NCBI GenBank assembly: GCA_001662655.1 | Contig: KV460222.1 | From: Pseudogymnoascus verrucosus | Taxonomy: Eukaryota | Length of the DNA stretch: 64,000 nucleotides | Direction: 5' to 3' (one strand) | In this document: positions 1,621 to 64,000 of the stretch, one piece after another | Numbering within the stretch: the first letter of the stretch is position 1 | Layout of the letters: every line of letters starts with the position of its first letter | Position numbers and translations under genes: made by a program | The notes under the pieces: model-generated | The model's input: the letters and a program-made list of their open reading frames with translations, nothing else | Databases searched by the model: none | What the model was told of the DNA's origin: nothing

Positions 1621-2571
1621 GACCCCAGTCAGTCGATTCAGTCTGCAGTTGTAGAATATAAAACGGAGCAAAGAATAACGCAAATACGGATGGATGGGAA
1701 CAAGAAACACCAATTAACTGTTTTTCGTCTCTCTCTAGGGAATTGAGGGGGAGATGTGGGCTTCTCTGGACATACTGTACTGTGCAGTAACCCATTGTAT
1801 AAATGTATGAATGTATAGATTAGTACATGCTCTCTAGCGTCTTCCAGAGCTCGCATTCCTGGTACCTGGGTGGATCGTGGGGGTAGGTCCTCCCCTGCCG
1901 CTAGCGCTAGTTGCATTTGGAGACGCTAGTATTTGCAGGGGGGAGGGGGCCGGGGGCGGCACGCACAGTCTGGATAACGTTTTCCGGGAGGAGGGACAAT
2001 GGACGGGAGTAGGGACCGGCATCAGACAAGACAGTAAGGAGTACATAGTGGAGTGAATACTTGTCATGGATGGTATCGCGTCTACTACAGTACGTAGTAT
2101 GGCAGGTCTTCGTTCTAGGTATGGATTAGAGGCATGGGCTGTAAGGCATGCACTATGGTCGGATTCATGTGGCGAGGCTGCCGCTCTGCCCAGTCCCCAG
2201 CTTCCCCGGCTTCCTCAGCTTCCCCAGATTCCATTCGTCCTCCCTCGGAGAGACTGTCTCTTTGGCACTAACAGCCTGTCACCCCGCACATTAGCCTTGG
2301 TGCGCAATGGTGCTAGAGACATGGATTTAGAGACATATGGGAAAAGGGCGCCCGACCGGCTTTCGGCTCACGAAACCCATCGAGACCTCCCCTAACACTT
2401 TCTTGTCCACGCTCAAGAGACTGGCGATTCGTGTGAGTAGTGCCGACTTTTCTCAGATATATCCCCTTCTATTCCGTGCTTTCTAACCCCCAACTCCCTC
2501 CATCTCTCAATCCACAACTATCCCCCTTTAATTCTCCATCCCCTTCCTTGTCTTCCCCTTTCATCCTCGCA

Positions 2572-37242: not shown

Positions 37243-37926
37243 CTAGATTCCAATACGGGTCTTTCTCCAATGCCTCCTCTTGGCGTTGTACCTGTGAGGT
37301 AATCAGCAGTTGTTCGGGCGCCTGCGGACGCAGGCTGTAATGGCTTTTATCATCACCTCTACTCCCTCTTCCAATCTCCTCTCCTCCCTCCACCGCCCGT
37401 CCCATCTAGGGGATCTAGGCGATAGGAGGAAGGAGGGGAAATGAGGAGGAGGGGAGAGGGAGACAACGGGGAGAAGGTTGATTTACCTGATCGTGTTTCC
37501 GGTACGGAGACGGATCCATTGGGGAATGGGGCGGTTGGACTTCTGGGCCTTGGCCAGCTTGACCTTGGTGCGGAAAGACTTGTGGCTCTGGGGGGGAATG
37601 TGTTAGCTGTTGTTCTGTTTCTCGTGTTTTCCTTCCTTCGTTCTGTCTCGGTTTGGTGGTGCGATGGATGCGATGCGGTGCGTGCGAGAAGACGGGTGTG
37701 ATAGTCGCTGTATTAGGTGTGATGGTCGCTGCAGTGGGTGTTGTTGGAGTCGTTTGCTGGAGCCTCAAAGTTCGATCGCAGGTCGCTCGTCATCAATATC
37801 GCTGTCTCTCGGTCGCTGTCGTAGTATTCGCAACCCATCGCACTCATCACACCCATCGCATCGCATCCCATCACACACGCCCATCCATCCTCCAGGAGAG
37901 GAAAAGTAAACATCACATACCGGCAT
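37243..37926 (-). CDS. RPL39: 60S ribosomal protein L39 (eL39), 3 exons; absent from the ORF track
   Basis: Exons 37926-37921 (ATG CCG), 37587-37487 and 37291-37243 total 156 nt and give [51 protein letters not shown] (51 aa). Confidence 0.97.
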
Positions 37927-40612
37927 CTTGAATGATTGTCGAGTCGTTGGTGGTTGTCGATAATCCTCAAAAAGAATCTCTTCAAATTCGTCGTTAACCC
38001 ACAAGCGGTACACACCTCCAATTTTTGGCGCGCAGGGCATGGTGCCCTAATCTGTTTTCTAACGTATCTTACCTAAGCCGTTTTCGCTTGGCTTGGAGGG
38101 TGGATGTCACGTGGTTTACCCACCCTAAAACTTCTTGGGTTCGGTGTTAGTGCCAAGTAGCATTACATAAGCGAAACCCTCGCTGAATTCCAACGGAGCT
38201 ATCATCACTTTAATACGTAATCACATGATCTACGGAGGTGGTAGCAACACTTCGGACCCGAACAACACCCCTACAAACCCGGGCCTTGGCACCCCTCCTC
38301 GGCCGACGCCACCACACCCCTATCGCAATGTCCGCGTGGATCCCTCTGTGAGATGACAGCGTTGGCGCGTGGTGATGTCGCTGGTACTTGCTGGGATTGT
38401 TTGGTCATCCCTGGGAGGTCGGTGAGAGAGGGAAGGTCAAGGAAGGAAGACTCATACGGCGGACTCACTCAGTCATAGTGATAGAGATAGAGCTTACTCT
38501 CGGTGGTCTGGGGGGCCTTGCCGGGTCCGAGAGGTGATGGGGGCCGGCGTGGTGAGGAGGGGTGGTGAGTGGTTGGATAGATGGATGGGGAGCTTGGGTA
38601 TGGATAGGGATAGGGATGTGAATGGATATAGAGGCTGACGGTGCTGACAGGAATACGGATGAATGTGGAAGTGCTGTGGTCAGCGTGGATATACATGCAT
38701 ATATGCATATATACATCTGATAACGGCGGCGGGAGTACTCTCGGGTGAGGCTGGATAGGGAACGAGGATGGATGGTACGGCGGACAGCACGGTGACTATG
38801 TTACTACAACCCATGTGGTAGGGCGTTGTGCGCTGTGGGATTTGGGGAGGAAGGCGAGGGACGGGAGGGCAGGTGCTGTAGGTGATGCGGTCAAGCTGTG
38901 ACTGGAACTGTAAGTTGTGTCGCATCGGTATGCACGCCCCGACAGCCGTCACAGCAGTAATTACTACTGTATAGTACATACATACTGTGGTACTGTCTGT
39001 ACTACTATCTGGATATCACCGTTACAACCAGCGACGACGACGATGATCCAGCCAGCCAGCAGCTACACCACCACCGATCCGACCCCCCTATGAGATTCGA
39101 AAGGCTTGGTTTAGTCGACGGTGGTGATTACGTACGTACGGACGTACCAGTCGCGGGTGCGGAGTGCGAGACGATCCGAGAGAGTACGATGGGCGCTACG
39201 ACGAGGAGGGCTGGAATTGGTAAGCTTGGGTCGCGGCGTGGTCCCGCTTTTTGGTGGCTTTGATAGAGGAGAGTGGGTAGTGGAGGAGGGACTGGGAATG
39301 GGACTGGGGAATCTCCCGTCGTCGCTGGCTGGGTGGGTGTCGCTTAGAGGGGTGGAGGAGAGGAGGAAGGCAGCAGTAAAGGGAAGTAAGGAAGGAGAGG
39401 GTGCAGGATGGTGAAGAGGTAAGAGAGTGGTGACAGAGTGGTGGGGGATTTGTGTGGTTGATAGCAGGTGTATGCCACTCGTCGTCTCGGTGTCGTCTTC
39501 AAGAGACTGTTGAAGCAATTGATATTCATATCCCCTACCACCACAACACAATCAACAACTCCCAATCCAATCCAATCCAATCCCATCCAATCCCAAAATA
39601 AACGCTGTGTCAAAGTTCCAGACTGGACTCCTCCTTCTAGAGTTCTAGAGTAAAGTAGTGTGGGGCAAAAGGAAATGATACAGTACTCATACCCATCCCA
39701 TCCCTCCCAACTCCGTACCATACCTACCCTTTTTGCATGGTATCCCACGTCTGCCTAACTTTTTATGCACGGTCGGTGGTAAGAGTTATGAATAAATCCC
39801 GTTTTTATTTGCGACTAGGTTTAGTATAGTGACTGACGACGGCTTGGATGCGTCGCAATGGGAAAAGTACATGGTATATCACCCTAAAGTAAGCATTTTT
39901 CTCGGGGGATATCCAACACCCGAGAGATGCTCAGTGGTTGTTTAGCTGGTTGGCGTGGCTGTAGTGGCTGTAGTCGCAACAAGCGCCACGCGTGGTTGGC
40001 CTGTTAATGTATGGAAACAGCTATAGCAGCCATACCAAACCCACCCTTTGTATCTTCTACCGCCTCTTCTCTCCCTTCCCTCGTACTTCGGACCCGGCGT
40101 CACCCTCGTACCTCGCATCCCTCGCATACTTCGCATGTATAACCCCACCGAGCGGACGCATCAAGCTCCGGCGAAGAAAGTTATGGACAGTCTCTCAACA
40201 GAGGCAAAAAACAACTGTCATACATAATAACAACCACTCAAAACAACCACACCCCTCCCAAACTCCGTAGCATATCTAATTAAATCTTGGGTTACCTCCG
40301 TACCCTATCTCCATATTCTACTTTGCTTGTCACATATATACCTATCGTGCCCTCTCCCTCTTCTTGCTCTTTGTCCCTTTCTCTTCTTCTACTATACGCT
40401 TTTGCATAAATAATTTACCCCACACGAACGACGACACGGTTGAATACCGAACCGCGTGTGCAAACCGGCTATAACATAATACGGCGCTCCTTGCTTCTAC
40501 TTCTAATCTCCATGTCTGTCTGAGACTTTTTCATTCTTCATTCAGAGCGTAACACACACTGCAAAAGCACAGCACAGGAGCTGGTGCCACCGCTCCCCAC
40601 GCTGCTGCAGCC

Positions 40613-43600
40613 ATGGGGTCTCACCCCTCCGAAAAAGACCTCGAGGTCCCGACAGCCACCCCCTCCACAAACGGCGACTCGTCTACCGACGACGTCGAGA
40701 GCGCCAACTACCGCAAGGCCGTCGACAACAAGGAGACCGGGTCGCCTGCCCACAAGGACGAGGCCGACCTCAAGAAACTCGACTCCAATGTCATTAAAGT
40801 CAAGGACGAGGACGACGATCCCTTCCGCCACTTGCCAGCCGACGAGGCTGAGATCCTGAAGCGACAGGTCGATATTCCCGTCGTCACCTCCACATACTGG
40901 ACCCTGTACCGCTATGCCACCTTCAACGACAAGCTTATCATCGCGCTGAGCTGCGTCTGCGCCATCGCGGCCGGCGCGGCGCTGCCTCTCATGACCATTG
41001 TCTTTGGTAACCTGGCGGGCCAGTTCCAGGGCCTCTTCCTCGGGTCGATCCCCAAGGAGGAATTCAAGGGGATTCTCTCACACAATGTTTTGTATTTTAT
41101 CTATATCGCCGTCGCCGAGTTCGTTACGGTCTACATCTTCACGGTCGGGTTTATCTATACGGGAGAGCATATGAGCGGGAAGATCAGAGAGCGCTATTTG
41201 GAGGCGTGTATGAGGCAGAATGTTGGGTTCTTCGATAAGCTTGGTGCCGGTGAGATTACCACGCGCATCACGGCGGATACGAATCTGGTGCAGGACGGTA
41301 TGTCTGAGAAGGTCGGCCTCACCCTTGCGGCAGTGGCGACTTTCGTCACGGCCTTCGTCATTGGTTTCATCAAGTACTGGAAACTCACTCTCATCCTGTC
41401 TTCCACGGTCTTTGCGATCGTCTTCCTCATGGGCGGCCTGTCGCGCTTCATCGTCAAGTATAACAAGAAATCCCTCGAGTCGTACGCCCTGGGCGGCACC
41501 ATCGCCGAGGAGGTCATCAGCTCCATCCGCAATGCGACCGCCTTCGGCACACAAGACAAGCTGGCCAGGCAGTACGATCTGCATCTCGCCGAGGCCGAGA
41601 AGTGGGGTTACAAGGTCAAGGTCATTCTCGGGTTCATGATCGGAGGCATGATGGGTATCGTGTATCTCAACTACGGTCTTGCTTTCTGGCAGGGCGCCAA
41701 GATGATCGTTAACGGCGAGACGGCGCTCAGCAACATTTTGACGACCCTGCTGGCTATCATGATTGGTGCTTTCTCGTTCGGAAACGTCGCGCCTAACATC
41801 CAGGCTTTCACCACTGCTACGTCTGCTGCTGCAAAGATCTTCAACACTATCGATCGCGTGTCTCCGCTGGACTCCTCGGACGATAAGGGAATCAAGCTCG
41901 AGCACGTTGAGGGAACCGTCGAGCTCCGCAATATCAAGCACATCTACCCCTCGCGCCCTGAAGTCACCGTTATGGAGGACGTCAGCCTTTTGATCCCAGC
42001 TGGTAAGAAGACCGCTCTCGTTGGCGCATCTGGTTCCGGAAAGAGTACCATTGTTGGTCTCGTCGAGCGCTTCTACGATCCCGTCAAGGGTAACGTGTAC
42101 CTTGATGGCCACGATGTCAGCACGCTCAACCTCAAGTGGCTGCGCAGCAACATCTCCCTTGTCGCCCAGGAGCCCGTCCTCTTCGGCACTACTATCCTGG
42201 AGAACATCCTCCACGGTCTCATCGGCACCAAGTACGAGCACGAGAGTCTCGAGAAGAAGACCGAGCTCGCTGTGGAGGCATCCAAGATGGCCAATGCCCA
42301 CGAGTTCGTTACAGGTCTTCCCGAGGGATACCAGACTCATGTTGGTGAGCGTGGATTCCTGCTCAGTGGAGGCCAGAAACAGCGTATTGCCATTGCTCGC
42401 GCGATGATCTCGGATCCTAAGATTCTGCTCCTCGATGAGGCTACATCTGCTCTTGATACCAAGTCTGAGGGTGTTGTCCAGGCTGCACTCGAAGTCGCGG
42501 CTGCTGGGAGAACTACTATTACTATCGCTCATCGTCTGTCTACTATTAAGGATGCCGACAATATCGTCGTTATGCAGGAAGGTCGCATCATCGAACAGGG
42601 TACCCACGATCAACTTTTGGAAGCTCAAGGCGCGTACTTCAGACTCGTCGAGGCGCAGAAGATTGCCGCTGTCAACGCCGTCACCGCCGAGGAACAGGCA
42701 GCTATTGACGCCGATGATGAGAAACTCGCTCGCCACATCTCCGAAACCGCAGGACAGGATTACATCGAAGACCCAGATGACAAGAACATCGCCAACAAGC
42801 TGAACCGCACCGCGACCGAGAAATCCCAATCCAGCGTAGCCCTCCAGAAGCGCGTTACCGAAGGGGAGCAGACCTACTCCCTCTGGACCCTCATCAAGCT
42901 CGTCGCCTCCTTCAACAAGAAAGAAACGCACCTCATGCTCGTTGGTCTCTTCTGGGCCATCATCTGCGGTGGCGGCAACCCCACCCAAGCCGTCTTCTTC
43001 GCCAAGCAAATCCTAACCCTCTCCTTCGCGCCCACCGCCTCCTCCCCCGCCCAGGTCATCAGCGACTCCAACTTCTGGAGTCTAATGTACCTCATGCTGG
43101 CCATCGTGCAATTTATCGCCTTCGCCATCCAAGGGTGGGCCTTCGCATTCTGCTCCGAGCGTCTCGTCCACCGCGTGCGCGACCAGGCTTTCCGCTCCAT
43201 GCTGCGCCAGGACATCGCCTTTTTTGACCGCGACGAGAATTCCGCAGGCGCACTGACATCTTTCCTCTCGACCGAGACGACGCACATCGCCGGTCTCTCC
43301 GGCGCCACCCTGGGCACGATTCTCACCGTCGTCGTGACCCTCATCGCCGCCCTCGCCGTCTCCATCGCAATCGGCTGGAAGCTCTCCCTCGTCGTCGCCT
43401 CTACAATCCCCATCCTCCTCGGCTGCGGCTTCCTCCGCTTCTGGGTCCTGGCGCAATTCCAGAGCCGTTCGAAGAAGGCATACGAGTCCTCCGCTAGTTA
43501 CGCGTGTGAAGCCACATCAGCTATCCGCACCGTCGCTTCGCTCACCCGCGAGAACGACGTGCTGGACAAATACAAGGAGCAGCTCGCCTCGCAGGCAAGC

Positions 43601-44656
43601 GTCTCCCTCAGATCCACACTCCACTCCTCCACCCTCTACGCCGCCTCGCAATCGATGACCCTCCTCGTCATGGCCCTCGGGTTCTGGTACGGAGGCACTT
43701 TGCTCATCAACAAGGAATACACAATCTTCCAATTCTTCCTCTGCTTCGCCTCCATTATCTTCGGTGCCCAGTCCGCCGGAACCGTTTTCTCCTTCGCCCC
43801 CGACATGGGCAAGGCCAAGGAATCCGCCCGCGCCCTCAAGGTCCTCTTTGATCGCGTCCCGGCTATCGATTCCTGGTCCACTGAGGGAGAACACCTCGAG
43901 TCTATGGATGGGACGATTGAATTCCGCGATGTCCATTTCCGCTACCCCACTCGCCCAGAACAGCCCGTCCTCCGCGGCCTAAACCTCACCGTCAAGCCAG
44001 GCCAATACGTCGCCCTAGTCGGTGCCTCCGGGTGCGGGAAATCCACGACCATCGCGCTTTTGGAGCGTTTCTACGACCCCCTCGTCGGCGGTGTCTTCGT
44101 GGATGGGAAGGAGATTTCCACGCTCAATATCGCGAATTACCGCTCCTACCTCGCCCTCGTCAGCCAGGAACCTACGCTCTACCAGGGCTCGATCAGGGAT
44201 AACATCTTGTTGGGAGCAGACCGCGATGACGTCCCTGATTCCGAAATCGAGCATGCGTGTCGCGAGGCCAATATCTACGATTTCATCATGTCCCTCCCCG
44301 ACGGCTTCGGTACCGTCGTCGGTAGCAAAGGCTCTATGTTGTCTGGTGGGCAGAAACAGCGTATCGCCATCGCGCGCGCCTTACTTCGCGACCCCAAGAT
44401 TTTACTGCTGGATGAGGCCACGTCAGCGCTGGATTCGGAGTCTGAGCATGTGGTGCAGGCGGCGCTGGATGCGGCTGCGAAGGGGAGGACGACGGTTGCG
44501 GTGGCGCATAGGCTGTCGACGATTCAGAAGGCGGATGTGATTTATGTGTTTGATCAGGGGAGGGTGGTGGAGCAGGGGACGCATGGGGAGTTGATGAAAC
44601 GGGCGGGACGGTATGCGGAGTTGGTTAATTTGCAGCAGTTGGGGAGGAATAATTAG
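40613..44656 (+). CDS. Full-size ABCB (MDR/P-glycoprotein) multidrug transporter, intronless
   Basis: 1347 aa, TMD-NBD-TMD-NBD; Walker A GASGSGKS and GASGCGKS; two LSGGQKQRIAIARA signatures; LLLDEATSALD twice. Confidence 0.97.
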   Translation: MGSHPSEKDLEVPTATPSTNGDSSTDDVESANYRKAVDNKETGSPAHKDEADLKKLDSNVIKVKDEDDDPFRHLPADEAEILKRQVDIPVVTSTYWTLYRYATFNDKLIIALSCVCAIAAGAALPLMTIVFGNLAGQFQGLFLGSIPKEEFKGILSHNVLYFIYIAVAEFVTVYIFTVGFIYTGEHMSGKIRERYLEACMRQNVGFFDKLGAGEITTRITADTNLVQDGMSEKVGLTLAAVATFVTAFVIGFIKYWKLTLILSSTVFAIVFLMGGLSRFIVKYNKKSLESYALGGTIAEEVISSIRNATAFGTQDKLARQYDLHLAEAEKWGYKVKVILGFMIGGMMGIVYLNYGLAFWQGAKMIVNGETALSNILTTLLAIMIGAFSFGNVAPNIQAFTTATSAAAKIFNTIDRVSPLDSSDDKGIKLEHVEGTVELRNIKHIYPSRPEVTVMEDVSLLIPAGKKTALVGASGSGKSTIVGLVERFYDPVKGNVYLDGHDVSTLNLKWLRSNISLVAQEPVLFGTTILENILHGLIGTKYEHESLEKKTELAVEASKMANAHEFVTGLPEGYQTHVGERGFLLSGGQKQRIAIARAMISDPKILLLDEATSALDTKSEGVVQAALEVAAAGRTTITIAHRLSTIKDADNIVVMQEGRIIEQGTHDQLLEAQGAYFRLVEAQKIAAVNAVTAEEQAAIDADDEKLARHISETAGQDYIEDPDDKNIANKLNRTATEKSQSSVALQKRVTEGEQTYSLWTLIKLVASFNKKETHLMLVGLFWAIICGGGNPTQAVFFAKQILTLSFAPTASSPAQVISDSNFWSLMYLMLAIVQFIAFAIQGWAFAFCSERLVHRVRDQAFRSMLRQDIAFFDRDENSAGALTSFLSTETTHIAGLSGATLGTILTVVVTLIAALAVSIAIGWKLSLVVASTIPILLGCGFLRFWVLAQFQSRSKKAYESSASYACEATSAIRTVASLTRENDVLDKYKEQLASQASVSLRSTLHSSTLYAASQSMTLLVMALGFWYGGTLLINKEYTIFQFFLCFASIIFGAQSAGTVFSFAPDMGKAKESARALKVLFDRVPAIDSWSTEGEHLESMDGTIEFRDVHFRYPTRPEQPVLRGLNLTVKPGQYVALVGASGCGKSTTIALLERFYDPLVGGVFVDGKEISTLNIANYRSYLALVSQEPTLYQGSIRDNILLGADRDDVPDSEIEHACREANIYDFIMSLPDGFGTVVGSKGSMLSGGQKQRIAIARALLRDPKILLLDEATSALDSESEHVVQAALDAAAKGRTTVAVAHRLSTIQKADVIYVFDQGRVVEQGTHGELMKRAGRYAELVNLQQLGRNN

Positions 44657-45258: not shown

Positions 45259-45374
45259 GCTTTCGTGGCTCAGTTGGCTAGAGCGTTGGTCTCATATGTT
45301 GAATATGACGTTACTGAAATAAATAAACAGTCACGGTGATCCAAAGGTCGCAAGTTCGAGCCTTGCCGAGAGCA
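45259..45374 (+). tRNA. tRNA-Met(CAT), elongator type, with a 42-nt intron
   Basis: Acceptor GCTTTCG/CGAGAGC-A, D arm GCTC..GAGC, anticodon CAT at 45293-45295, intron 45297-45338 at the canonical 37/38 position, T arm GCAAG-TTCGAGC-CTTGC, T31:T39 mismatch typical of elongator Met, downstream T-run. Confidence 0.93.
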
Positions 45375-45463
45375 ATCTTTTTTTTGTTAACTTTCCTTTT
45401 GCCCTCCTCCCCTTTTAGATTTAAGATTAATATATCAAAAAAAAAAAAAAAAAATAGCAAAAA

Positions 45464-45528
45464 ACATACAACAGTGGGTATTCGCTGGTGGTCACCCACC
45501 CAACTACTAATCCACTGATCTCAAGCTT
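45464..45528 (-). rRNA. 5S rRNA gene, 3' half only (interrupted)
   Basis: Reverse complement reads AAGCTTGAGATCAGTGGATTAGTAGTTGGGTGGGTGACCACCAGCGAATACCCACTGTTGTATGT plus a T-run, the conserved 3' about 65 nt of Pezizomycotina 5S; homology stops abruptly at 45528. Confidence 0.9.
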
Positions 45529-45555
45529 TCAGTGGATTAATACTCAGGACGGTGC

Positions 45556-45849
45556 TGTAAGGCGGCCTCCTTACTCGGGTCAGTTACGGTCGTCACGTGG
45601 CGCCCTAGAGACTCGGGGCCGTTACGGTTCAATCGCGACTACGAGCCTTAGGCACATAGCGTAAGGAAGCCTTAGGCACACAGAGGGTTGAGTCGGAGGG
45701 GTTTCGGGTATTTAAAGAAAGGGGAACAGAGGGTTTCCCCTTCATCTTTTTTGTATCCTTCGTAGTAGACCTATAGGATTGTACCTACTCCTATCCGACT
45801 CGCACTCCCATATGCAACTTATCGTGATACGGTGCCCTGTGTCCTTACA
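45556..45849. mobile_element. Solo LTR (294 bp)
   Basis: Termini TGTAAGG...CCTTACA (7-bp inverted, TG..CA), internal direct repeat AGCCTTAGGCACA twice, TATA-like GTATTTAAAG; flanks GGTGC/TATAG do not form a TSD. Confidence 0.75.
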
Positions 45850-46960
45850 TATAGGGATAATGTAAAGATCTACGTAATCTACACTAGGGTTGTAAATAAG
45901 ATTAAAGGTAAGTTTAATCTATATTATACTTATTATCTTCTAATTGTACTAAGATCCTTAGATATACAAATAAGTTATAGGTTAGAAAAGCAATGCTATA
46001 TATAAGGAATACTATAGGTTAGGGCTTATTAAAGAAAATAGGAGAGGATAATAAAACTTTACTAAAACTAACTAGCAAGTTTCCTTTAATCTACTACCTT
46101 ATACTAGAACACAATTATATTACAAATGTATTATTAGTTACTAAAGATCTATAGAGTAAAGAAGGGTAGGCTGTTTTATAAGATCTATATAGTTTATATA
46201 TTAATAATAATTAAGTAGTATATTAACTAGATAAATAGCCTGTTAATAGAGTATGCCCTTATAATAATTATCTAACTATTATAGTAGAGTAAGCATAAGA
46301 TGTAATTCTAAGGTAATTAAAGCTAACTAATTTAGGCTAAGTCTTCTAATGTACTTAAAGCATATATATAATTATTACTAACATAAGCTATAAGATACCT
46401 AAAGTTAACAACCTAGCTTATACTCCTACTAGCTTTCGAACTAAAAGCTTCTATTTACTAAGTACTATTATACATATTATAAATGGAGTTATAGTAAAGA
46501 TAACTAGAATAACTATTATAAATAGTATCTTAAAAATCTAATAATAAGATATAGGCTTCTTACTTTTTGCTATATGCTTACTATTATAGGTTACTATCTA
46601 TACTATATAGGTAATAAGAGCCTTTCTCTATTATAAAGGATATAGTAATAGATAATAAAATCTATACTCCTTAATTATATTAATAAACACCTTAAGACTA
46701 GTATAAAAAAGAAATGTTTATATCCCTTATGTTACATACTACTTATAAACGCTTTAGACTCCTAAGCCTATTTTTAGAATGCTTATTATATTAAAGAACT
46801 ACGTTTAAACTATATAAGTAGGAAACGGAAGTGTAAAGATAATAAGGAAAATGAATAAGACATAAAGGGCAAGGCTTTAAACTATATAAGCAAAAAGGCA
46901 AAGAATGAGGACAAGAAGGTAGAGGGGGAAAATGTAGGACCTACAACAGTTATAAGATAA
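45850..46960 (+). pseudogene. RIP-degraded 3' half of a Starship captain (DUF3435 tyrosine recombinase)
   Basis: Very TpA-rich with no ORF. Reverting only T>C/A>G transitions gives, in order: YRDNVKIHAIRAGVANKI (45850-45903), intron donor at 45908, QVMGQKSDAVYEEYY (45971-46015), MPERDRIA...DLRSKEGQAVLQDLYSLC...VAYRP...GVCP (from 46101), FAEYCYTC..W...W.DHC.QHL, GYCPYCMGD (46589-46615), LLNHIDEHL and CPHPLC (46715-46732). Confidence 0.85.
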
Positions 46961-47880
46961 ATAATACTATTGTTGTTTTCAAATTGCGATTTAAACTGTG
47001 GCTTAAATTGCGGTTGCAGTTGCGGTTGCTAATTGTAGCTGACTTCTTGGACGAGAGTGGCTCTAAGAGCATTTCCGGTATTAGTCATAAGCACACAATT
47101 CCAGATTCGGCACTAAATACATTCCGCAGGTGTACCAAAAACTGTTAAGATCACGTGGCGAAGGGCGACAAATTGCGGTTGCCAATTGTGGCTGACGATG
47201 TTGTGAGGAGAGCCATTAACGATGTTGGCGTGGTGCAAACCGTCGTCGCTCTGAAACTAAGATTACGTCTCAGATGCGGATTCAACTGTGGCTCTAATCC
47301 CACGTCCGGTTGCCATCTATGCTGTGAGTGAGAGTGGTAATAAGTTGACGGAAATAATGGCTCACAATTTGAAAGAGCAGCAATCTGCTGGCCATCATCC
47401 GGTGATACCAGCTGTGGACCACACACCTCAACTTTATGCTGCAAAGTGCGACTCACACGTAAGTAAACCACTACGACCGCGTAAATGCTCTGTGGCACCG
47501 TTATCGTCCCTCGTCTTGAAAACCTAGATACACCTGACGTATCGCACCCAAGGCGGGGATACCAGTCGCTTTAATGCAGGCTTGGGGAGATGTTGCCGTT
47601 GGTCCGTCATAGAGCTCATTATTTCTTCAGCGGTTGATATTCTTCGATTCTTATTGTAAATGAAGTTCATATTGATGGTATTTGGGTACTTGAAACCCAA
47701 CGACCTCCAGCCATTATCCTCCACCAATTATCCTCCACCCAATTACCCTCCACCCAATTACCCTCCACCCAATTACCCTCCACCTACGCCTCACAACATA
47801 ATCAGCCACAGTTGGCAACCACAACTACAACTCAAGCCTCAGTTTGAATTGCAATTTGAGAACGACAATAGTTTATATTA
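46960..47880. repeat. Imperfect ~90-bp inverted repeats with further partial internal copies
   Basis: 46965-47043 (ACTATTGTTGTTTTCAAATTGCGATTTAAACTGTGGCTT...) matches the reverse complement of 47790-47875; a partial copy at 47170-47208 and a more diverged one near 47240-47325. Confidence 0.6.
47711..47784 (+). repeat. 15-bp tandem repeat (AATTACCCTCCACCC), about 5 copies
   Basis: Directly visible; would encode (NYPPP)n in ORF 47660-47899. Confidence 0.9.
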
Positions 47881-48447
47881 TTTATATTATGACATATGAT
47901 TCTAGTTGCAGGCAAACGTAGAACTGTCACCACTTCCTGTTTTACGATAGCCCCGGTGACTCCTTGGCTGGCTCGTCTTTTCACTTCCGTGTGATATTTC
48001 GATTGTATGAAATGCTATTTACATGGTAGTGATGTTACACTAATTTTGACACTAATTTGGTGCCTGAGACTTGCCCGCGCCGCAGCATCTCAAGCCCTGT
48101 AGCTAGGTTATGCAACCGCCATTAATCATTTTACTCGGGGGTGGTTTCAGCTTCTCTTCCGAGTGTCACGAGACCATTGCTATAGCAAGGCTTTATAGGC
48201 CAATACTTAAGCCGTTATGCCATATCAGTGATGATGGCTCTATCATATCATATATCTCTTCGAACAGTGGTCTAAAACCTTGCCTCATTTCTTAACACGT
48301 CTCTAGTTTAAGAGCTTCATTCTGAGACAGATCCACATAGATCAAAAGACATCTTGATATCATTGTGAGCATCACTCTACCGAGTTTAGTATCCGCAGCA
48401 TTAATGAGTATAATTCAAAAATTTGTCGGCTATATGAAAATTGGCGA

Positions 48448-50004
48448 TCATGGTAAGATGCATATCTCTGGACCCTTAGGAACCAAGTCAAACCACAGTC
48501 CTCTAAAGCCATTCTCCCGAGCTGATCTAATGAAATTCACAAAGGTGACAAATTTTGTCAAGTAGGCCACAGATATTCCAGGTCCAGGTATCATTTCAAG
48601 AATTTCGTCCCCGCATTCCCGGGTAACCTCTAGAATGGCTACAAGGAGGGGAAAACTGGTGTTTTGCATCGTAGTTTTGCCTTGCAGCTGTGTAGAGCAT
48701 TGCTTAAAGTCACTGACAATGGCATTTGCATATACCTCAGCAATCTCATCATTGACGCCAAAGGGGTTTTTTAGACGATGAATAACCAGTAGTGCTGCGA
48801 GGCGATACACCCGGGCCTGGGTGAGCATGATCAAAACCTCCGACGCGAAATAATTCTCTGCGAAGCCTGACGGGATGGTTGGTTCCCATGACCGGACTTT
48901 CTCCTCGATCCCTAAAAATATAGCCGGGTCCCCATATGCACTTGCCTCCCCATATGCACTTGCCGAGCCTGCCATACTAGCTGCGTTGCTTAAATCGCAA
49001 AGTTCGTAAAGAATAGGTAGAAAGGAAGAGCAAATCCCGACAAATCGATCAACCCGGTGCAGATCCGGGGCGAACCTGATTACTGGAATCTGTCTTTTGA
49101 CAAGACACTCAACCGTATCCATCAACACCGGCGTTGCTGTAATGGAATGAAGCCACTCCTCCCTGCAAAGCGCCGGGTACCATGGCTTCACACCAGTGAG
49201 GGAGTGTCGCAATATCATATGTGACCCCATACATGTTGTGAATATGTCAAAGGTTGCTAAGGATTGTCCCAAAAGAAGTATTCCAGCAGCAACATGAATA
49301 CTATTGATGTGTGTGGTACGGAGCTGTTCTAGCCCTGTGGCACCCCTCTTTACATAAACTTGGTCTACCATCGATTTGCGGTGGTGGGGTTCGCTCAACG
49401 CCCCCAAGATAGCTAAAAAGGTGTGCTCCAGGAGTAATGGCGAGGAGAGGTAGATGCTTGTCAAAGTTGAATGAAACTCGCGAACAAATGTAGGCCCGAT
49501 AACGAATTGCTTATTGGCCATATAGAACTCTTGGAGGTCTAACGCGCAACCCTGGAGTGACACGACTGAGGAATCGGCAAGACCCGCATATCGGCACAAC
49601 AAATTTGACACAGCGGAGTTGATAGTAGCTGGATCTTGCAGCCGTACATGACGACTGATGAAACTGGAGGCTGCTGCGCTGCCAGTGATTTGGGGCGCCT
49701 GTGGGGAATAATCCCACTTCAGCTCCTCAGACGCTGAATAGTTGTTGCGCCAAACCTGCTCCGTACAGCCATTTCCAAAGACTCGAAGAACTGGGCGACG
49801 ACCTGGGGCCAATTGGTGCCGTCTGGTTTCGCACTTCTCTTGTGCATGGCGGCATCGAAGACATGCTCGCGAGTTATCCTCGAAAACGCACTTCCCCTTG
49901 ACCACCCGGCAACGATCGCACGCTCGACTAGATGGCATCCGGCAATATCGGGTAAAAGTAGAAGAATAATACTTCGTCAACCCGGTCGCTGAGAGGAAGG
50001 CCAT
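48448..50004 (-). CDS. Zn2Cys6 transcription factor with a Fungal_trans_2-like C-terminal domain, intronless
   Basis: CDRCRVVKGKC...CLRC...C cluster; VDRFVGIC, LPILYELC and YRLAALLVIHRL motifs. Confidence 0.88.
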   Translation of the reverse strand: MAFLSATGLTKYYSSTFTRYCRMPSSRACDRCRVVKGKCVFEDNSRACLRCRHAQEKCETRRHQLAPGRRPVLRVFGNGCTEQVWRNNYSASEELKWDYSPQAPQITGSAAASSFISRHVRLQDPATINSAVSNLLCRYAGLADSSVVSLQGCALDLQEFYMANKQFVIGPTFVREFHSTLTSIYLSSPLLLEHTFLAILGALSEPHHRKSMVDQVYVKRGATGLEQLRTTHINSIHVAAGILLLGQSLATFDIFTTCMGSHMILRHSLTGVKPWYPALCREEWLHSITATPVLMDTVECLVKRQIPVIRFAPDLHRVDRFVGICSSFLPILYELCDLSNAASMAGSASAYGEASAYGDPAIFLGIEEKVRSWEPTIPSGFAENYFASEVLIMLTQARVYRLAALLVIHRLKNPFGVNDEIAEVYANAIVSDFKQCSTQLQGKTTMQNTSFPLLVAILEVTRECGDEILEMIPGPGISVAYLTKFVTFVNFIRSARENGFRGLWFDLVPKGPEICILP

Positions 50005-54180: not shown

Positions 54181-54220
54181 GGTGGGTGACCACCAACGAA
54201 TACCTTCCGTTGTATGTTTT
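54181..54220 (+). rRNA. Second 5S rRNA relic (last ~36 nt plus T-run), non-functional
   Basis: GGTGGGTGACCACCAACGAATACCTTCCGTTGTATGTTTT matches the reverse complement of 45461-45500 at 36 of 40 positions. Confidence 0.8.
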
Positions 54221-54869
54221 GACTTTTATTATTATTTGTAGAAACAAAATTAGAGTTTTATGAGTGTGCTGTTATGTTAATGTGAGACGAAGAGCATAGA
54301 GCAGTGACGCCATGTACTATGTATTCAAACGGTATAACCTAATCTATTATCATAAGCTGCTCTCCCTTTTACTCGTGATATAGTGAATATCAGGGCCGTC
54401 GAAGCATGGAACGACTATTGGCAGACACCTCCGTTCTAGTTTTGGTATTTGCCAGGCTTCAACTCGCTTTAGCCGACCACCTGTAAGGTTATCGGTGCGG
54501 ACACGAAGATTAATAGTCTTTTTTGCTAGTGGTGCTAGGTCCTGTGAAACTGTAGAATCAGGCTCTTATAGAGGGACGAATCAATGTATGAGGGCATGCA
54601 CGCAGGTCATCGGTTAGAGCGACGAAGATTGGAATGGGAGGTCGAAAAACGAGGATATCAGAAGGCAAGACTGGTATACACTTACATCAACAAGGCATGC
54701 GTCTCCTTGAAGTGTGTACAGTCTTGGATTCTGAAGATAGGCATAGAACCGCATACTTTTGTAGTAGGATGATTGTCTATGCATCACTGGTCGTCACCAA
54801 GGTAGTCACAAACAGTGAGAAATTGGCAGTATCATGGAGTTACACCACGCAAACAAGTATCATGATGGG

Positions 54870-57287: not shown

Positions 57288-59878
57288 CAGTGTTCGGCGG
57301 GTACCACTTGGGGTATATACCCGGAGCTTCGCGGGTAGAGTAGGTAGGTAGGTAGGATATCACGGGTAGGTATGGGTATATACCCGGGTATATGAGGCTC
57401 TGCTATAAAATTGCTATGCAGAAAAGTAGAATTGAGGTTAATAATAACTATGATAATAACGTTAGGTCGTGATATAATAATGTAATATACTGTTGCAACC
57501 CCTATTCCTCCCACTCATCGTCTCCATCGCCTTCGCTGTCGTCACCTTCTGGAAGTACACCCCAATCCCGTAGGCAGAGTAAATATCTTACAGTTGAAGG
57601 CGACAGCCGGTTCCGCTTCTTAGTAATTATATCGCTGCCATTACTAAATACCCGCTCTGATGCAGCAGATGTAGCTGGAATTGCAAGATAGTCTCTTGCA
57701 ATTTGCGCAACAATTGGATACATATACTGCTTTGATAACCAGTACTTTAGAATATCTGTCTGTTGGCCAGGCCGTAGCTCAAGTATCCACCGCTTCCACT
57801 CAGGTTCTTGAAATGAGATTCCTTCTGTAGCGTATAGATCATCGTCAGAATCAGTCTCATGGACTGCTGCATTAGCTAATTCTGTCTGCTGCTCGATTCT
57901 CTCAGTGTCAAGATGATATTGACGGGTCTTATACTGTGTAAAGACATCTTGAAAGTGAGCTCTTACTCGATTCCTTTTACTTGCCTCTCTACTACTTGGC
58001 CATAAGCTTGTAAAGACTTTAAGATTCATTCTTAGATCACAAATTGTAGCTACACTTAAGTGGCTATACTGCTGGTTTGCTAAAAGAGTATAATACTCAT
58101 TTAGCTTGTAAAGCGCTGCGTTGCATGCAATTCCAATTGTAGACTGCTCACCCACTTCCTTTAGCATATAATTAAGCTTATTAATCATTTTTAAATACTG
58201 TGGAATAGCGTAGTTAAGAGTAGGGTATGTGCTAGCTTGTAGCTTCTACAAAGGGCGTAAGAAGATAACGAAAAATAGCTCAAGCTCTTTAATCATTGAC
58301 CAGTCATTAGCATTAAGAGCAATATCTCTCATGCTAATATCCCACTGCTGCGACGCACAGATAGCTGTAATTGGCACTTGAAGCTTTATTACGGATTTAA
58401 GCATCTTATGTGTTGAATTCCAGCGGACTGGCATATCAAGTGATAATTGCTGTACTTTAAGGCCAGCTACCATTGTTTGCTTCTGTAGAGCGTCCTTCCA
58501 TAACCGGCGATTCCGAAACACATAGATATGTCTCCGAAGTTTAGCAAGTGTATTCATAACTTCTGTATGAGAATCAACAGTGCGTGGGATTCGTGCAGCA
58601 CCTAGCTCACACCTATATGTCTCCGACTCTGCTGAAGGGTCCGCTTTGATTGTCTTTAAAGCGTGTTGAACAGCAATATTAATAATATGTGCAATACAAC
58701 GTACATCGCCTTCTTTAACAGTAAAAGTCCACGGCTGTTGTATAGAAGTTGAATGATTGCGAGCTAAGAGCTCGTACTCAGCAAGCATAACAGTGTTAGC
58801 TGATGCATTATCTCGTGTACATGTAAAGATAGCATCAGTAATCCCCATATCATCTGTAACGGCATATAATTGGCTTGCAAGATATTCACCGCTGTGAATT
58901 GGCTCTTTCAGATGAATCACATCTAACAGATTTGACTTCTGCTGCCACTTGCTATTTATCTAATGTGCTGTTACTGCAGAGTATTCGGTGTAGTTGCGTG
59001 CAGACCATGAGTCGGTAGTCAAGCATATCCAGCCTCCATTTGCAATATGAGAATGGAGTTCTGCTTGTAACTGAGCACGGCATAGTGAGAACCGCCTTTA
59101 AAGGTCGCGATGTAGTGTTCTAGCAGATACTGACAAAGTAATAGGGCTTAAGAATTGAATAATTTGACGAAAAGATAGACTATCAACAAGGCGTAATGAC
59201 AGATTGTTTGATACTATAAATTGTAGCAGTAAATCTCTATACTTTGATGCATTGACTGGCTGCTTAGCCGTTGTCTTCTTTAGCTCAAAGAACGATGAGC
59301 TACTTGACGGACTTGATGCTGCTTGTGCCTAGTCGTTCTTTCTCATGCTAAATGAGATTTGCGGGTGCTTTTGGGTGTAGTGCTTCCATAAGTTACCAGT
59401 TGATTTATCTGAGAATACTAATGGCTGCGGTGAATAACCGCAGTCTGGCTGGCTACAGGTAACCCGAATAGTTGGTGGTGTAGTGTCCAATAGCGTACGC
59501 ATATATAGATTCTTAGCAAACAGCGGTGAAGAGCTTGGAGGAAGCATTGTACGAGGTGGCTGGAGATAGAGCGATGGAAGAAGAGTAGGTAAGGTTGGCT
59601 CATTAACCTCATCGAGGCCAATGTCGTCGAGGCCAATAGGCACATCTGATAATGAGGAGTCGCTCATTATATGTTATGGCATCTACATCACAAGCATATT
59701 ACGAGCACAATATGGTTATATTCATAAATTCTAATTACTTGGCAAAGCTTGGCAAATACCCGGGGTATATACCTACCTACTCGAAATACCCGGGTAGTTT
59801 TCTCATATAAAAGGGTAGGTATATACCCGGGTATATACCCGGATACACTGGGTATATACCTACCTGTGCCGAACACTG
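57288..59878 (-). mobile_element. Complete hAT-superfamily DNA transposon (2591 bp)
   Basis: 11-bp perfect TIRs CAGTGTTCGGC (57288-57298; reverse complement at 59868-59878); 8-bp TSD ATGGTGGG (57280-57287 and 59879-59886); subterminal GGGTATATACC and GGTAGGTA arrays at both ends. Confidence 0.96.
57502..59667 (-). pseudogene. hAT transposase, a single 721-codon frame with four nonsense codons
   Basis: BED-like finger (C..C...LWKHY..KH), TTDSW, TRDNASAN, RCIAHIINI, VRWNST and dimerisation motif PATSAASERVFS. The three track ORFs share one frame, separated by TAG/TAA stops. Confidence 0.93.
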
Positions 59879-63404: not shown

Positions 63405-64000
63405 GGTTCCAATAACAACACTGCCTTGTCTATAATTCACAAATGATCATAATGCTGGGATAGCACAACAGGTAGCCTTGTCCAATTGATTCCAGCCTCA
63501 CCACATGTTTCTCACATAGAGTATTTCCAGCTATCGACTTGCGCAATACCATCACTCGCTCAGCACATCTTCTTCTCTAAGTCTTCCACAATATCACAGG
63601 ACCATTTCAACTCCCTCATCAGACCTCACCGACTTCCTCAACAAGCTGTAGCAGATAACGGATCATCCTTCGCCATGTTATATTTCTGTGGTAGTAGTGG
63701 TTTACTTACGCGTGGTGGTGGCACTTTGCGGAAGAAAATTGAGGTGTATGGTCAACAGCTGGTATCACCGGGATGGTGACCAGCAAATTGCTGCTCTTTC
63801 CAAAATCGTAAGCCATTTATCTCTGCCGGCTTATTACCACTGTGAACACTCGCGATCAGGATTCGCGGCCCGCCAACTCAGTGACTGGCCGCGAATTCTG
63901 ATTAACACAGGCCCCTCAGTTCAAGGAGGGGCCGCGAATCCATGGATCCACCCAATATATGTAGTTCTGGCAGCGGATTGCGTACAACTGGGTGAACTCA

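What the first reader, a model, noticed from the sequence alone, without database searches (positions are those of the whole stretch)
45464..46960. Hidden Starship: a captain invisible to ORF callers beside a 5S rRNA gene cut in half
Seen: the 5S gene stops mid-sequence at 45528. About 320 bp inward, an ORF-less TpA-rich kilobase yields the motifs HAIRAGVAN, MGQ..YY, MPERDR, GYCPYC and CPHPLC in the correct order once transitions are reverted. Established: Starships are giant Pezizomycotina transposons whose first gene is a DUF3435 tyrosine recombinase, and Galactica-type elements target 5S rDNA. Inference: DNA right of 45529 is cargo of a derelict 5S-targeting Starship that standard annotation would miss, because no captain protein can be predicted.
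Basis: partly seen in the sequence, partly recalled or inferred. Interest (0 to 1): 0.92.

Follow-up and report, generated by a model that had tools for sequence, protein, structure and literature searches.

The report
Dead Starship captain beside cut 5S gene
A mutated, partly deleted copy of the recombinase gene that drives giant fungal "Starship" transposons lies against a 5S rRNA gene cut in half, the scar of a known kind of insertion that gene finders would miss.

Summary
A 5S rRNA 3' half (45464-45528, minus strand) ends abruptly beside an intron-bearing tRNA-Met. The AT-rich, ORF-less block 45850-46960 is a RIP-mutated, internally deleted DUF3435 tyrosine recombinase ("captain") gene.

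Pfam on the window with stops masked finds nothing. A phmmer search led to L001, a less degraded 10-kb metagenome contig. L001 has the same 5S break and the same element end. Its captain looks intact, starts 387 bp inside, and scores 62.7 and 52.7 bits on PF11917.

In the two long aligned blocks the window differs from L001 by 240 C>T/G>A changes against 15 in reverse. Named captains hit the window by tblastn at E 1e-30.

The window copy is dead. It lacks the N-terminal ~340 codons and an internal 338 bp, carries 24 premature stops, and HAIRAG has become YVIYTR.

- **Not shown:** that DNA beyond 47486 is cargo. No 3' end, 5S 5' half or empty site was found.
- **Wrong:** the "Galactica" attribution. 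[quoted passage not shown]

This is a new member of a known kind.

The parts
45259..45374 (+). tRNA gene with a 44-nt intron and a CAU (Met) anticodon loop. Left neighbour of the 5S fragment, outside the element.
   Evidence: Rfam RF00005, 52 bits, full model 1-71. ARAGORN in bacterial mode missed it.
45464..45528 (-). 3' part of a 5S rRNA gene (model positions ~57-120), cut at its inner end. The T-rich terminator flank lies at 45438-45463.
   Evidence: cmscan RF00001, 23.3 bits, below the gathering score of 38. 95% identical over window 45448-45555 to L001 9-116, which has the same break.
45508..45539 (.). Junction site. Perfect 11-nt inverted arms: 45508-45518 in the 5S and 45529-45539 as the first 11 nt of the element. 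They flank a 10-nt spacer that contains the break.
   Evidence: Sequence. Only 2 such repeats occur in the 64-kb window, against 0-2 (17 of 20 gave none) in 20 shuffles. L001 keeps 10 of 11 in the 5S arm.
45529..45555 (+). Conserved captain-side terminus of the Starship-type element.
   Evidence: Lies within the block of 95% identity to L001 (L001 9-116). Similarity ends at 45555/45556.
45556..45849 (.). Filler of unknown origin. It stands where the relative has 1.58 kb (the upstream region plus about the first 340 codons of the captain). GC ~50% but with RIP-like dinucleotide bias.
   Evidence: No similarity to L001 above shuffles in a RIP-tolerant Smith-Waterman: scores 28-34 against 25-33. 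RIP indices for 45529-45850 are 1.73 and 0.62.
45850..45907 (+). Captain remnant, piece A: end of the exon holding the HxxR box. YRDNVKIHAIRAGVANKIK in L001 reads YRDNVKIYVIYTRVVNKIK here.
   Evidence: DNA homology starts sharply at 45850 = L001 1695. Codon comparison. The matching L001 ORF scores 62.7 bits on PF11917.
45908..45953 (+). 46-nt intron (GT..AG) of the captain gene, kept in the remnant.
   Evidence: Alignment to L001 1753-1798 and the exon join implied by P0004.
45954..46039 (+). Captain remnant, piece B: the VMGQKSDAVYEEYY region, where I place the catalytic tyrosine. Three premature stops.
   Evidence: tblastn P0004 343-371, 66% identity. Codon comparison.
46040..46289 (+). Captain remnant, piece C. 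It is joined to piece B across a 338-bp deletion (L001 1885-2223 is absent). Contains the MPERNR motif. Six premature stops.
   Evidence: blastn blocks. tblastn P0004 452-525, E 8e-16. Codon comparison.
46290..46336 (+). Second retained intron of the captain gene.
   Evidence: Frame change between L001 exons 1795-2472 and 2520-3140, mapped by a constant offset.
46337..46960 (+). Captain remnant, piece D: Cys-rich C-terminal region (GYCPYC, CPHPSC in L001). Fifteen premature stops, then the shared natural stop at 46958-46960.
   Evidence: tblastn P0006 592-778, E 1e-30. Codon comparison. 21-26 RIP-type changes per 100 bp in 46200-46899.
46961..47486 (+). Element DNA downstream of the captain. 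Homologous to L001 and not RIP-mutated. Homology to L001 ends here.
   Evidence: blastn L001 2223-3659 = window 46040-47477. About 2 RIP-type changes per 100 bp from 47100 on. Three-way alignment.
47789..47893 (-). Short inverted scrap of the captain 3' end and its downstream DNA (a second, truncated copy, tail to tail).
   Evidence: Window 46949-47023 against 47893-47815 (78%), 47173-47208 against 47824-47789 (89%), L001 3132-3206 against 47893-47815 (76%).
54181..54218 (+). Second, shorter 5S 3'-end scrap in the opposite orientation, cut at a different position (I estimate model position ~83).
   Evidence: Inverted repeat I2 with 45444-45500. Sequence. 90% identical to L001 22-61. No Rfam hit.
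54510..54590 (+). Probable second captain scrap: 27 residues matching the catalytic-arginine box (LIVFFASGARSCETVESGSYRGTNQ).
   Evidence: tblastn with 4 of 4 captains at the same homologous residues. Best is P0007 185-211, 63% identity, E 2e-4 in the window and 7e-6 in 3 kb. L001 1144-1200 is 72% identical at DNA level.

Best explanation
Window 45529-47486 is the captain-side (5') end of a Starship-type giant transposon. It integrated site-specifically into a 5S rRNA gene, between model positions ~56 and 57, next to a tRNA-Met gene.

**Inferred mechanism.** The element's DUF3435 tyrosine recombinase recognised a site inside the 5S gene. That site is now visible as an 11-nt arm in the 5S and an identical inverted arm at the element tip, around a 10-nt spacer. 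This layout resembles the core sites of other tyrosine recombinases. Strand exchange in the spacer split the 5S gene.

**Later history of this copy.**
- It lost about 1.6 kb, comprising the upstream region and the first ~340 codons with the catalytic-arginine box. A 294-bp filler now stands there.
- It lost a further 338 bp inside the gene.
- Repeat-induced point mutation hit it, but only over the captain coding region (45850-46960). This implies that only the captain sequence was repeated in the genome at that time.

The result is an untranslatable relic: 24 premature stops, and the His and Arg of the HxxR box both changed to Tyr.

**Shown and inferred.** Homology, the RIP direction, the deletions and the shared 5S junction are shown. 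The integration mechanism, the role of the inverted arms and the order of events are inferred. How far the element runs to the right is open.
For: 1. phmmer with frame +0 of 45529-46962, X at stops, against 1.84 billion proteins gave 2 hits, at E 3e-41 and 1.7e-10. Both are unnamed metagenome ORFs. Using P0002, the search for related loci returned L001.
2. L001 aligns to the window as follows:
   - L001 9-116 = window 45448-45555 (95%), the same 5S half and the same junction
   - L001 1695-1885 = window 45850-46040 (84%)
   - L001 2223-3659 = window 46040-47477 (82%)
3. Two L001 ORFs pass Pfam's PF11917 cut-off of 25.8 bits: 62.7 bits (E 3.9e-17, profile 106-208) and 52.7 bits (E 4.3e-14, profile 219-400).
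4. The L001 captain starts at 477, which is 387 bp from the boundary, and reads inward. Its exons are open and colinear with P0004 and P0006 (E 7.7e-179).
5. Changes from L001 to the window: 213 C>T/G>A against 13 T>C/A>G and 16 transversions in the long block, and 27 against 2 and 1 in the short block.
6. RIP-type changes run at 16-26 per 100 bp within 46100-46899 and fall to about 2 per 100 bp beyond 47100. They hit 53% of CpA sites and 51% of CpG sites, but only 4% of CpT and 10% of CpC.
7. Five proteins matched the L001 exon at E<=1e-5. Four carry PF11917, and three of those four are from Pseudogymnoascus. tblastn of these against the window gives E 1e-30 and 8e-16 inside the block.
8. Of 338 retained codons, 191 are unchanged and 24 are premature stops.
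9. Passages of PMC11162782 report 23% of curated Starship insertion sites inside 5S rDNA and at least 5 target positions.
Against: - No DUF3435 signal comes from the window itself with Pfam. The assignment rests on one less degraded relative plus tblastn.
- The other end of the element, a direct repeat and the 5S 5' half were not found in the window.
- No empty site was seen.
- L001 and the window share the 5S half and 16 nt of its outer flank. They might therefore be one inherited insertion, or the 5S half might travel with the repeat, rather than two independent hits on 5S.
- L001 and the window differ completely beyond 47486.
- No usual Starship accessory gene family turned up among the ORFs scanned in 45-64 kb. 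That scan covered 17 ORFs of 120 aa or more and 107 of 109 ORFs of 55-119 aa.
Confidence: 0.82

Rival explanations
1. Everything right of 45529, to beyond the window end (at least 18 kb), is cargo of this derelict Starship. That includes the Zn2Cys6 factor, short-chain dehydrogenase, hydrolase, thioesterase and hAT transposon.
For: - The first gene to the right (P0001, 48448-50004) has one cluster at 90% identity or more. The next hits are 55% and 53%, and all others are 39% or less (21 hits at E<=1e-20).
- By contrast, the ABC transporter to the left has at least 9 clusters at 90-100% identity in Pseudogymnoascus and 69-77% identity across other ascomycetes.
- The right side also holds a second 5S scrap, a second captain scrap and a hAT transposase.
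- Starships often carry metabolic clusters (passages of PMC12153272).
Against: - Homology with L001 stops at 47477-47486, and L001 carries quite different genes after that point: an alkyl sulfatase and an FAD monooxygenase.
- An inverted scrap at 47789-47893 suggests a rearrangement or deletion just there.
- No 5S 5' half or direct repeat was found.
- A patchy distribution fits any accessory region.
Confidence: 0.3
2. Only a stump is left. The element's body and its far end were deleted, with the break near 47486-47893. The genes further right are resident accessory genes of the host, not cargo.
For: - Homology to L001 ends sharply at 47477-47486.
- Captain 3'-end scraps lie tail to tail at 47789-47893.
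- The copy already shows two other deletions.
Against: - The same patchy distribution of the neighbouring factor.
- A second 5S scrap and a second captain scrap lie 7 kb further right. These are easier to explain if the whole stretch is Starship-derived or a hotspot.
Confidence: 0.4
3. The 5S half is not a target scar but part of the repeated unit. In this reading the element, or a segmental duplication, carries a captured 5S 3' fragment at its end.
For: - The window and L001 share the identical break plus 16 nt of flank beyond the 5S 3' end.
- 5S 3' scraps with different break points exist in the window.
Against: - Further out the flanks differ: 8 nt of L001 against the window's A-run.
- RIP did not touch the 5S half.
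- Insertion inside 5S with the gene split is the documented habit of three Starship families.
Confidence: 0.1
4. A solo, cargo-less DUF3435 or Crypton-like recombinase insertion, not a Starship.
For: Solo captain-like genes exist. The starfish survey counts 5-33 such genes per Pseudogymnoascus genome, yet found an element in only 1 of 21 genomes (Table S8 of PMC11162782).
Against: - In L001 the captain sits 387 bp from a sharp boundary in a 5S gene.
- It is followed, in the same contig, by unrelated metabolic genes.
- Its closest long relative probably falls in the paper's family 6, Enterprise.
Confidence: 0.08

Closest known systems
5S rDNA-targeting Starships of the Enterprise family (e.g. 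the Osiris elements of Aspergillus fumigatus; passages of PMC12153272 and PMC11162782)
   Same: - A DUF3435 captain is the first gene, reading inward.
- The insertion lies inside a 5S coding sequence and fragments it.
- The papers report that the Enterprise type element's true target is a 10-12 bp palindrome. Here 11-nt inverted arms flank the break.
- The closest long relative, P0006, probably equals a gene that the paper places in family 6, Enterprise. That equation is inferred from gene span and contig length, not verified.
   Different: - The host is a Leotiomycete, with closest proteins from Pseudogymnoascus.
- The copy is dead: RIP-mutated, with two deletions.
- The far end, direct repeat and cargo are unknown.
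- No phylogeny was run to place it in a family.
Voyager of Macrophomina phaseolina (PMC9156397)
   Same: A giant element led by a DUF3435 captain, always found in a 5S rDNA copy and predicted to inactivate that copy.
   Different: Voyager inserts 20 bp from the 5S 5' start. Here the break is at about model position 56/57, a different target site.
RIP-degraded Starships and captains (e.g. the Letharia lupina element marked 'Ripped' in Table S1 of PMC11162782; the 'degraded Starship' in A. fumigatus)
   Same: Directional C>T/G>A hypermutation of element DNA, leaving no callable captain ORF.
   Different: - Here RIP is confined to the captain coding region, with sharp edges. The adjoining element DNA is spared.
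- CpG sites were hit as often as CpA sites.
Galactica-family Starships
   Same: Captain-led Starships of the same broad clade as Enterprise (Table 1 of PMC11162782).
   Different: They are described as inserting at dispersed sites with short or no conserved repeats, for example A(N)TAGT for the Lamia elements. They are not described as targeting 5S rDNA.

Membership tests
Starship (captain-led cargo transposon of Pezizomycotina) | A DUF3435 (PF11917) tyrosine recombinase is the first gene at one end, reading inward. | tested here: met
   - Met through the relative L001: PF11917 at 62.7 and 52.7 bits against a cut-off of 25.8.
- The L001 captain starts 387 bp from the boundary.
- The window remnant is 82-84% identical in DNA and is hit by named captains at E 1e-30.
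- Pfam on the window itself found no hit.
Starship (captain-led cargo transposon of Pezizomycotina) | An intact, catalytically competent captain (Arg box, HxxR, Tyr). | tested here: not met
   In the window the Arg-box region is deleted, HAIRAG reads YVIYTR, and there are 24 premature stops in 338 codons. The copy is a relic. The L001 exons are open.
Starship (captain-led cargo transposon of Pezizomycotina) | A large cargo-bearing body bounded by direct repeats, with or without terminal inverted repeats. | tested here: inconclusive
   Only the captain-side boundary is seen. No 5S 5' half or second boundary lies in the window. Homology to L001 ends at 47486. L001 carries unrelated genes after the captain.
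Starship (captain-led cargo transposon of Pezizomycotina) | Presence/absence polymorphism, with an empty site in a related genome. | not testable with these tools
   No genome is held.
Starship (captain-led cargo transposon of Pezizomycotina) | Host in the Pezizomycotina. | tested here: met
   Proteins of the window are 100% identical to proteins named from Pseudogymnoascus. Three of the four PF11917-bearing relatives of the captain are from Pseudogymnoascus and the fourth is from Venustampulla.
5S rDNA-targeting Starships (Enterprise, Arwing, Voyager families) | Insertion inside the 5S coding sequence. | tested here: met
   The 5S match stops at about model position 57 at 45528, and the element terminus starts at 45529. 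L001 shows the same break.
5S rDNA-targeting Starships (Enterprise, Arwing, Voyager families) | A direct repeat of 6-16 bp matching a 5S motif at both ends. | not testable with these tools
   The second end was not found. Tables S12 and S13 of PMC11162782, which list such repeats, lie beyond the part of the supplement that is held.
5S rDNA-targeting Starships (Enterprise, Arwing, Voyager families) | The captain falls in one of those families by phylogeny. | tested here: inconclusive
   No tree was built. P0006 (47-69% identity to the L001 exons) probably equals a gene listed as fam06, which is Enterprise. That link is inferred from gene span and contig length only.
   Passages of PMC11162782 and PMC12153272 describe Galactica as inserting at dispersed sites. 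They name other families for 5S.
Repeat-induced point mutation (RIP) | A directional C>T/G>A excess relative to an unmutated copy, high TpA/ApT, low (CpA+TpG)/(ApC+GpT), and a CpA preference. | tested here: met
   - 240 forward transitions against 15 reverse.
- Indices of 1.59 and 0.40.
- 53% of CpA sites were hit, against 4% of CpT and 10% of CpC. CpG sites were hit at 51%, more than the classic Neurospora pattern as I recall it.
5S rRNA gene (Rfam RF00001) | A full-length match at or above the gathering score. | tested here: not met
   23.3 bits against 38. Only the 3' half aligns. It is absent from the gathering-threshold scan.

The most novel reading that the evidence does not exclude
The locus is a 5S-seeded Starship landing pad and graveyard.

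- At least two separate captain-led insertions hit 5S copies beside the tRNA-Met gene. The evidence is two 5S scraps with different break points, two captain scraps and an inverted third scrap.
- The 16 kb or more of accessory genes to the right were delivered as Starship cargo. These genes include the Zn2Cys6 factor, dehydrogenase, hydrolase and thioesterase.
- The 11-10-11 inverted-arm site across the junction would be the captain's core recombination site. That would give a sequence-level model of how an Enterprise-type captain reads 5S rDNA.
- RIP confined to the captain gene would show that the host genome disarms Starships through their one repeated part, leaving the cargo intact.
Probability: 0.25. 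Interest if true: 0.6.

Novelty: new member of a known kind. Interest (0 to 1): 0.42.

Why it matters
- **Detection.** Starship insertions can persist as scars that profile-based pipelines do not see, yet they can be recovered from a cut 5S gene plus a less degraded relative. Such scars mark where accessory DNA may have entered a genome.
- **The genus.** The starfish survey listed 5-33 captain-like genes per genome in 21 Pseudogymnoascus genomes, but only one delimited element (Table S8 of PMC11162782). My one literature search for the genus together with 'Starship' returned a single review (search listing only).
- **Two testable points.** One is whether the 11-10-11 inverted-arm site is the recombinase's core site. 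The other is whether RIP disarms the element through its only repeated gene while sparing the cargo.
- **Context.** None of this overturns current understanding. 5S targeting and degraded Starships are both already described.

Tried and rejected
- **Pfam on the window.** The six stop-masked frames of 45700-47100 gave no DUF3435 hit and only one chance hit, Csm1_B at E 1.2. Scans of 17 larger ORFs in 45-64 kb (within one search's 50 ORFs) and of 107 of 109 smaller ORFs in 45-64 kb found no DUF3435, DUF3723 or other Starship-linked family.
- **Motif reversion alone and stop or period-3 statistics.** These are too permissive to decide anything. Every frame can be 'de-RIPed'.
- **RY-alphabet self-comparison of the block with the window.** It found only the inverted scrap near 47.85 kb and no parent copy.
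- **Ordinary RIPped retrotransposon or DNA-transposon remnant.** This was my leading guess. The L001 homology rejects it.
- **'MITE at 46960-47880'.** An early reading, now rejected. The left part is element DNA shared with L001, and the right 'arm' is an inverted scrap of a second copy.
- **Homology of 45802-45849 to the captain.** tblastn extended into this stretch, but DNA homology starts sharply at 45850, so I reject it.
- **Whole-genome tools.** Unavailable for this window.
- **Earlier-findings look-ups.** They held nothing on this genome or this sequence.
- **Supplement search for 'rDNA', '5S_rRNA' and 'direct repeat'.** It found nothing in the held part. Tables S11-S15 of PMC11162782 are not held and may list the 5S target positions that bear on the junction.
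Full report
**What is at the coordinates**

A tRNA gene with a 44-nt intron and a CAU anticodon loop lies at 45259-45374 (Rfam, 52 bits). Ninety bases to its right, on the minus strand, is the 3' part of a 5S rRNA gene. cmscan gives 23.3 bits, below the gathering score of 38. Only model positions ~57-120 align well, and these correspond to 45464-45528.

From 45850 to 46960 the sequence drops to about 25% GC. Its RIP indices are classic: TpA/ApT is 1.59 and (CpA+TpG)/(ApC+GpT) is 0.40, against 0.64 and 1.19 in the left flank. Each of the six frames over 45529-46962 has 35-51 stops.

**First tests were negative or uninformative**

Pfam on the six frames of 45700-47100 with stops masked found no DUF3435 at E<=10. 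Under that freedom nearly every stop in every frame can be removed. The motif argument alone therefore proves nothing. At that stage I rated an ordinary RIPped transposon as more likely.

**The decisive lead**

- A phmmer search with frame +0 of 45529-46962, X at the stops, against 1.84 billion proteins gave two hits. P0002 scored E 3e-41 and P0003 scored E 1.7e-10.
- Both are unnamed metagenome ORFs without Pfam domains.
- They are out-of-frame readings of less mutated copies of the same DNA. They show tryptophan, glutamine or arginine where the window has stops.
- A scan of metagenome contigs with P0002 returned one locus, L001, of 10,022 bp.

**L001 against the window**

| L001 | Window | Identity | Content |
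|---|---|---|---|
| 9-116 | 45448-45555 | 95% | Same 5S half, same break, first 27 nt of the element |
| 1695-1885 | 45850-46040 | 84% | Captain |
| 2223-3659 | 46040-47477 | 82% | Captain and downstream DNA |

L001 is not RIP-mutated by the same indices.

The differences run one way. From L001 to the window, the long block has 213 C>T/G>A changes against 13 T>C/A>G and 16 transversions. The short block has 27 against 2 and 1.

RIP-type changes run at 16-26 per 100 bp within 46100-46899 and fall to about 2 per 100 bp beyond 47100. They hit 53% of CpA sites and 51% of CpG sites, but only 4% of CpT and 10% of CpC.

**L001 encodes a captain**

- Two of its ORFs pass Pfam's cut-off for DUF3435 (PF11917): 62.7 bits (profile 106-208) and 52.7 bits (profile 219-400).
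- Its translation literally contains HAIRAGVAN, VMGQKSDAVYEEYY, MPERNR, GYCPYC and CPHPSC, in that order.
- A search with one L001 exon found 5 proteins at E<=1e-5. Four carry PF11917: three from Pseudogymnoascus, and a 1047-residue protein from Venustampulla.
- tblastn of these four against L001 shows six colinear open exons starting at 477 (MGRKTLSKEE...). That start is 387 bp inside the 5S junction, and the gene reads inward.
- Against the window, the same four hit the AT-rich block at E 1e-30 (P0006 residues 509-778) and 8e-16 (P0004 residues 452-525).

**State of the window copy**

- DNA homology begins sharply at 45850.
- The 294 bp between the conserved terminus (45529-45555) and 45850 match nothing in L001 above shuffled controls. 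They stand where L001 has 1.58 kb, so the upstream region and about the first 340 codons are gone. That loss includes the catalytic-arginine box.
- A further 338 bp (L001 1885-2223) are missing at 46040.
- Four pieces remain, separated by two retained introns and the 338-bp deletion. They hold 338 codons: 191 unchanged, 24 premature stops, and the shared natural stop at 46958-46960.
- HAIRAG now reads YVIYTR.

**The junction**

The first 11 nt of the element (45529-45539) are a perfect inverted copy of 5S nucleotides 45508-45518. A 10-nt spacer containing the break lies between them. Only two such repeats exist in the 64-kb window, and 20 shuffles gave 0 to 2, with 17 giving none. L001 keeps the arrangement with one mismatch.

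Inverted arms around a short crossover spacer are the usual layout of tyrosine-recombinase core sites. That statement is established knowledge that I recall, not something tested here. The NAR 2024 paper notes that the true target of the Enterprise type element is a 10-12 bp palindrome (passage). That this site is the captain's binding site is my inference.

**How far the element extends**

- Homology to L001 ends at 47477-47486.
- After that point L001 carries an alkyl sulfatase and an FAD monooxygenase. The window carries a Zn2Cys6 factor, a dehydrogenase, a hydrolase, a thioesterase and a hAT transposase.
- A short inverted scrap of the captain's 3' end lies at 47789-47893, which suggests a rearrangement there.
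- No 5S 5' half is in the window.
- As a proxy for core versus accessory status I compared the two flanking genes:
  - The ABC transporter on the left has at least 9 clusters at 90-100% identity in Pseudogymnoascus, and 69-77% identity across other ascomycetes.
  - The Zn2Cys6 factor on the right has one cluster at 100%, then 55% and 53%, then 39% or less.
- That contrast fits cargo, but it also fits any accessory region.
- An empty-site test could not be made.

**More debris**

- A second 5S 3' scrap (54181-54218, plus strand) is cut at a different position.
- A 27-residue match to the captain's arginine box at 54510-54590 was hit by all four captains at the same residues. The best E-value is 2e-4 in the window.
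- Their geometry does not fit a simple insertion into that 5S scrap.
- Together with the inverted scrap, this suggests repeated Starship activity around 5S copies. A similar 5S-rich hotspot is described in Aspergillus fumigatus (passage of PMC12153272).

**Comparison with what is known**

- Passages of PMC11162782 state that 23% of curated Starship insertion sites lie in 5S rDNA. [quoted passage not shown] Galactica is described as inserting at dispersed sites.
- Voyager inserts 20 bp from the 5S start (PMC9156397). That is not the position seen here.
- The family of this captain was not determined by a tree. P0006 probably equals a gene that the paper's Table S4 assigns to family 6, Enterprise. 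That link rests only on gene span and contig length.
- Table S8 lists 21 Pseudogymnoascus genomes with 5-33 captain-like genes, but an element in only one.
- One search for the genus name together with 'Starship' returned a single review, seen as a listing only.

**Verdict**

The captain and 5S-target reading is supported. The Galactica label is wrong, and the cargo claim is open. This is a new member of a known kind: a RIP-killed, truncated, 5S-targeting Starship end. It has two modestly interesting features, namely the inverted-arm junction and RIP confined to the captain gene.

Noticed in passing
window 54181-54218 and 54510-54590: A second 5S 3'-end scrap (plus strand, different break point) lies 290 bp to the left of a 27-residue scrap of a captain's catalytic-arginine box. 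The geometry does not fit a simple insertion into that 5S scrap.
   Followed up: partly
window 47789-47893: An inverted scrap of the captain 3' end and its downstream DNA lies tail to tail with the main remnant. 15-nt tandem repeats (47710-47783) lie just before it.
   Followed up: partly
window 47333-47486, 63671-63841 (inverted) and L001 3519-3678: A ~170-bp conserved segment occurs in three places. In all three, similarity decays just after a shared GTAAGT. It may be a conserved exon or leader of a gene that follows captains, or a small repeat.
   Followed up: partly
window 45850-47477: RIP-type mutation stops close to the captain's stop codon and spares the adjoining element DNA. CpG sites were mutated as often as CpA sites (51% against 53%).
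   Followed up: yes
window 48448-50004: A Zn2Cys6-type factor (518-aa ORF) has one cluster at 100% identity, after which hits drop to 55%. It looks like an accessory gene of patchy distribution. The neighbouring ABC transporter (40553-44656) is conserved across the class.
   Followed up: partly
window 57311-59840: A hAT-family transposase (57502-58959, minus strand; dimerisation domain E 4e-21) is flanked by perfect 20-nt inverted repeats (57374-57393 and 59821-59840). A C2H2 finger ORF lies at 59332-59673.
   Followed up: no
window 37353-37462: Weak hits to several microRNA-precursor models on both strands at one spot. This suggests a ~100-nt hairpin-forming inverted repeat. All hits are far below the gathering scores.
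   Followed up: no
L001 281-388: About ten tandem copies of a 10-nt unit (GGTGAGCGAA-like) lie between the element terminus and the captain start in the intact relative. They are absent from the window copy.
   Followed up: no
P0002, P0003 (metagenome proteins): Gene callers translated wrong-frame ORFs across other copies of this captain. At least two further copies therefore exist in environmental data, one of them with a deletion relative to window 47030-47180.
   Followed up: partly
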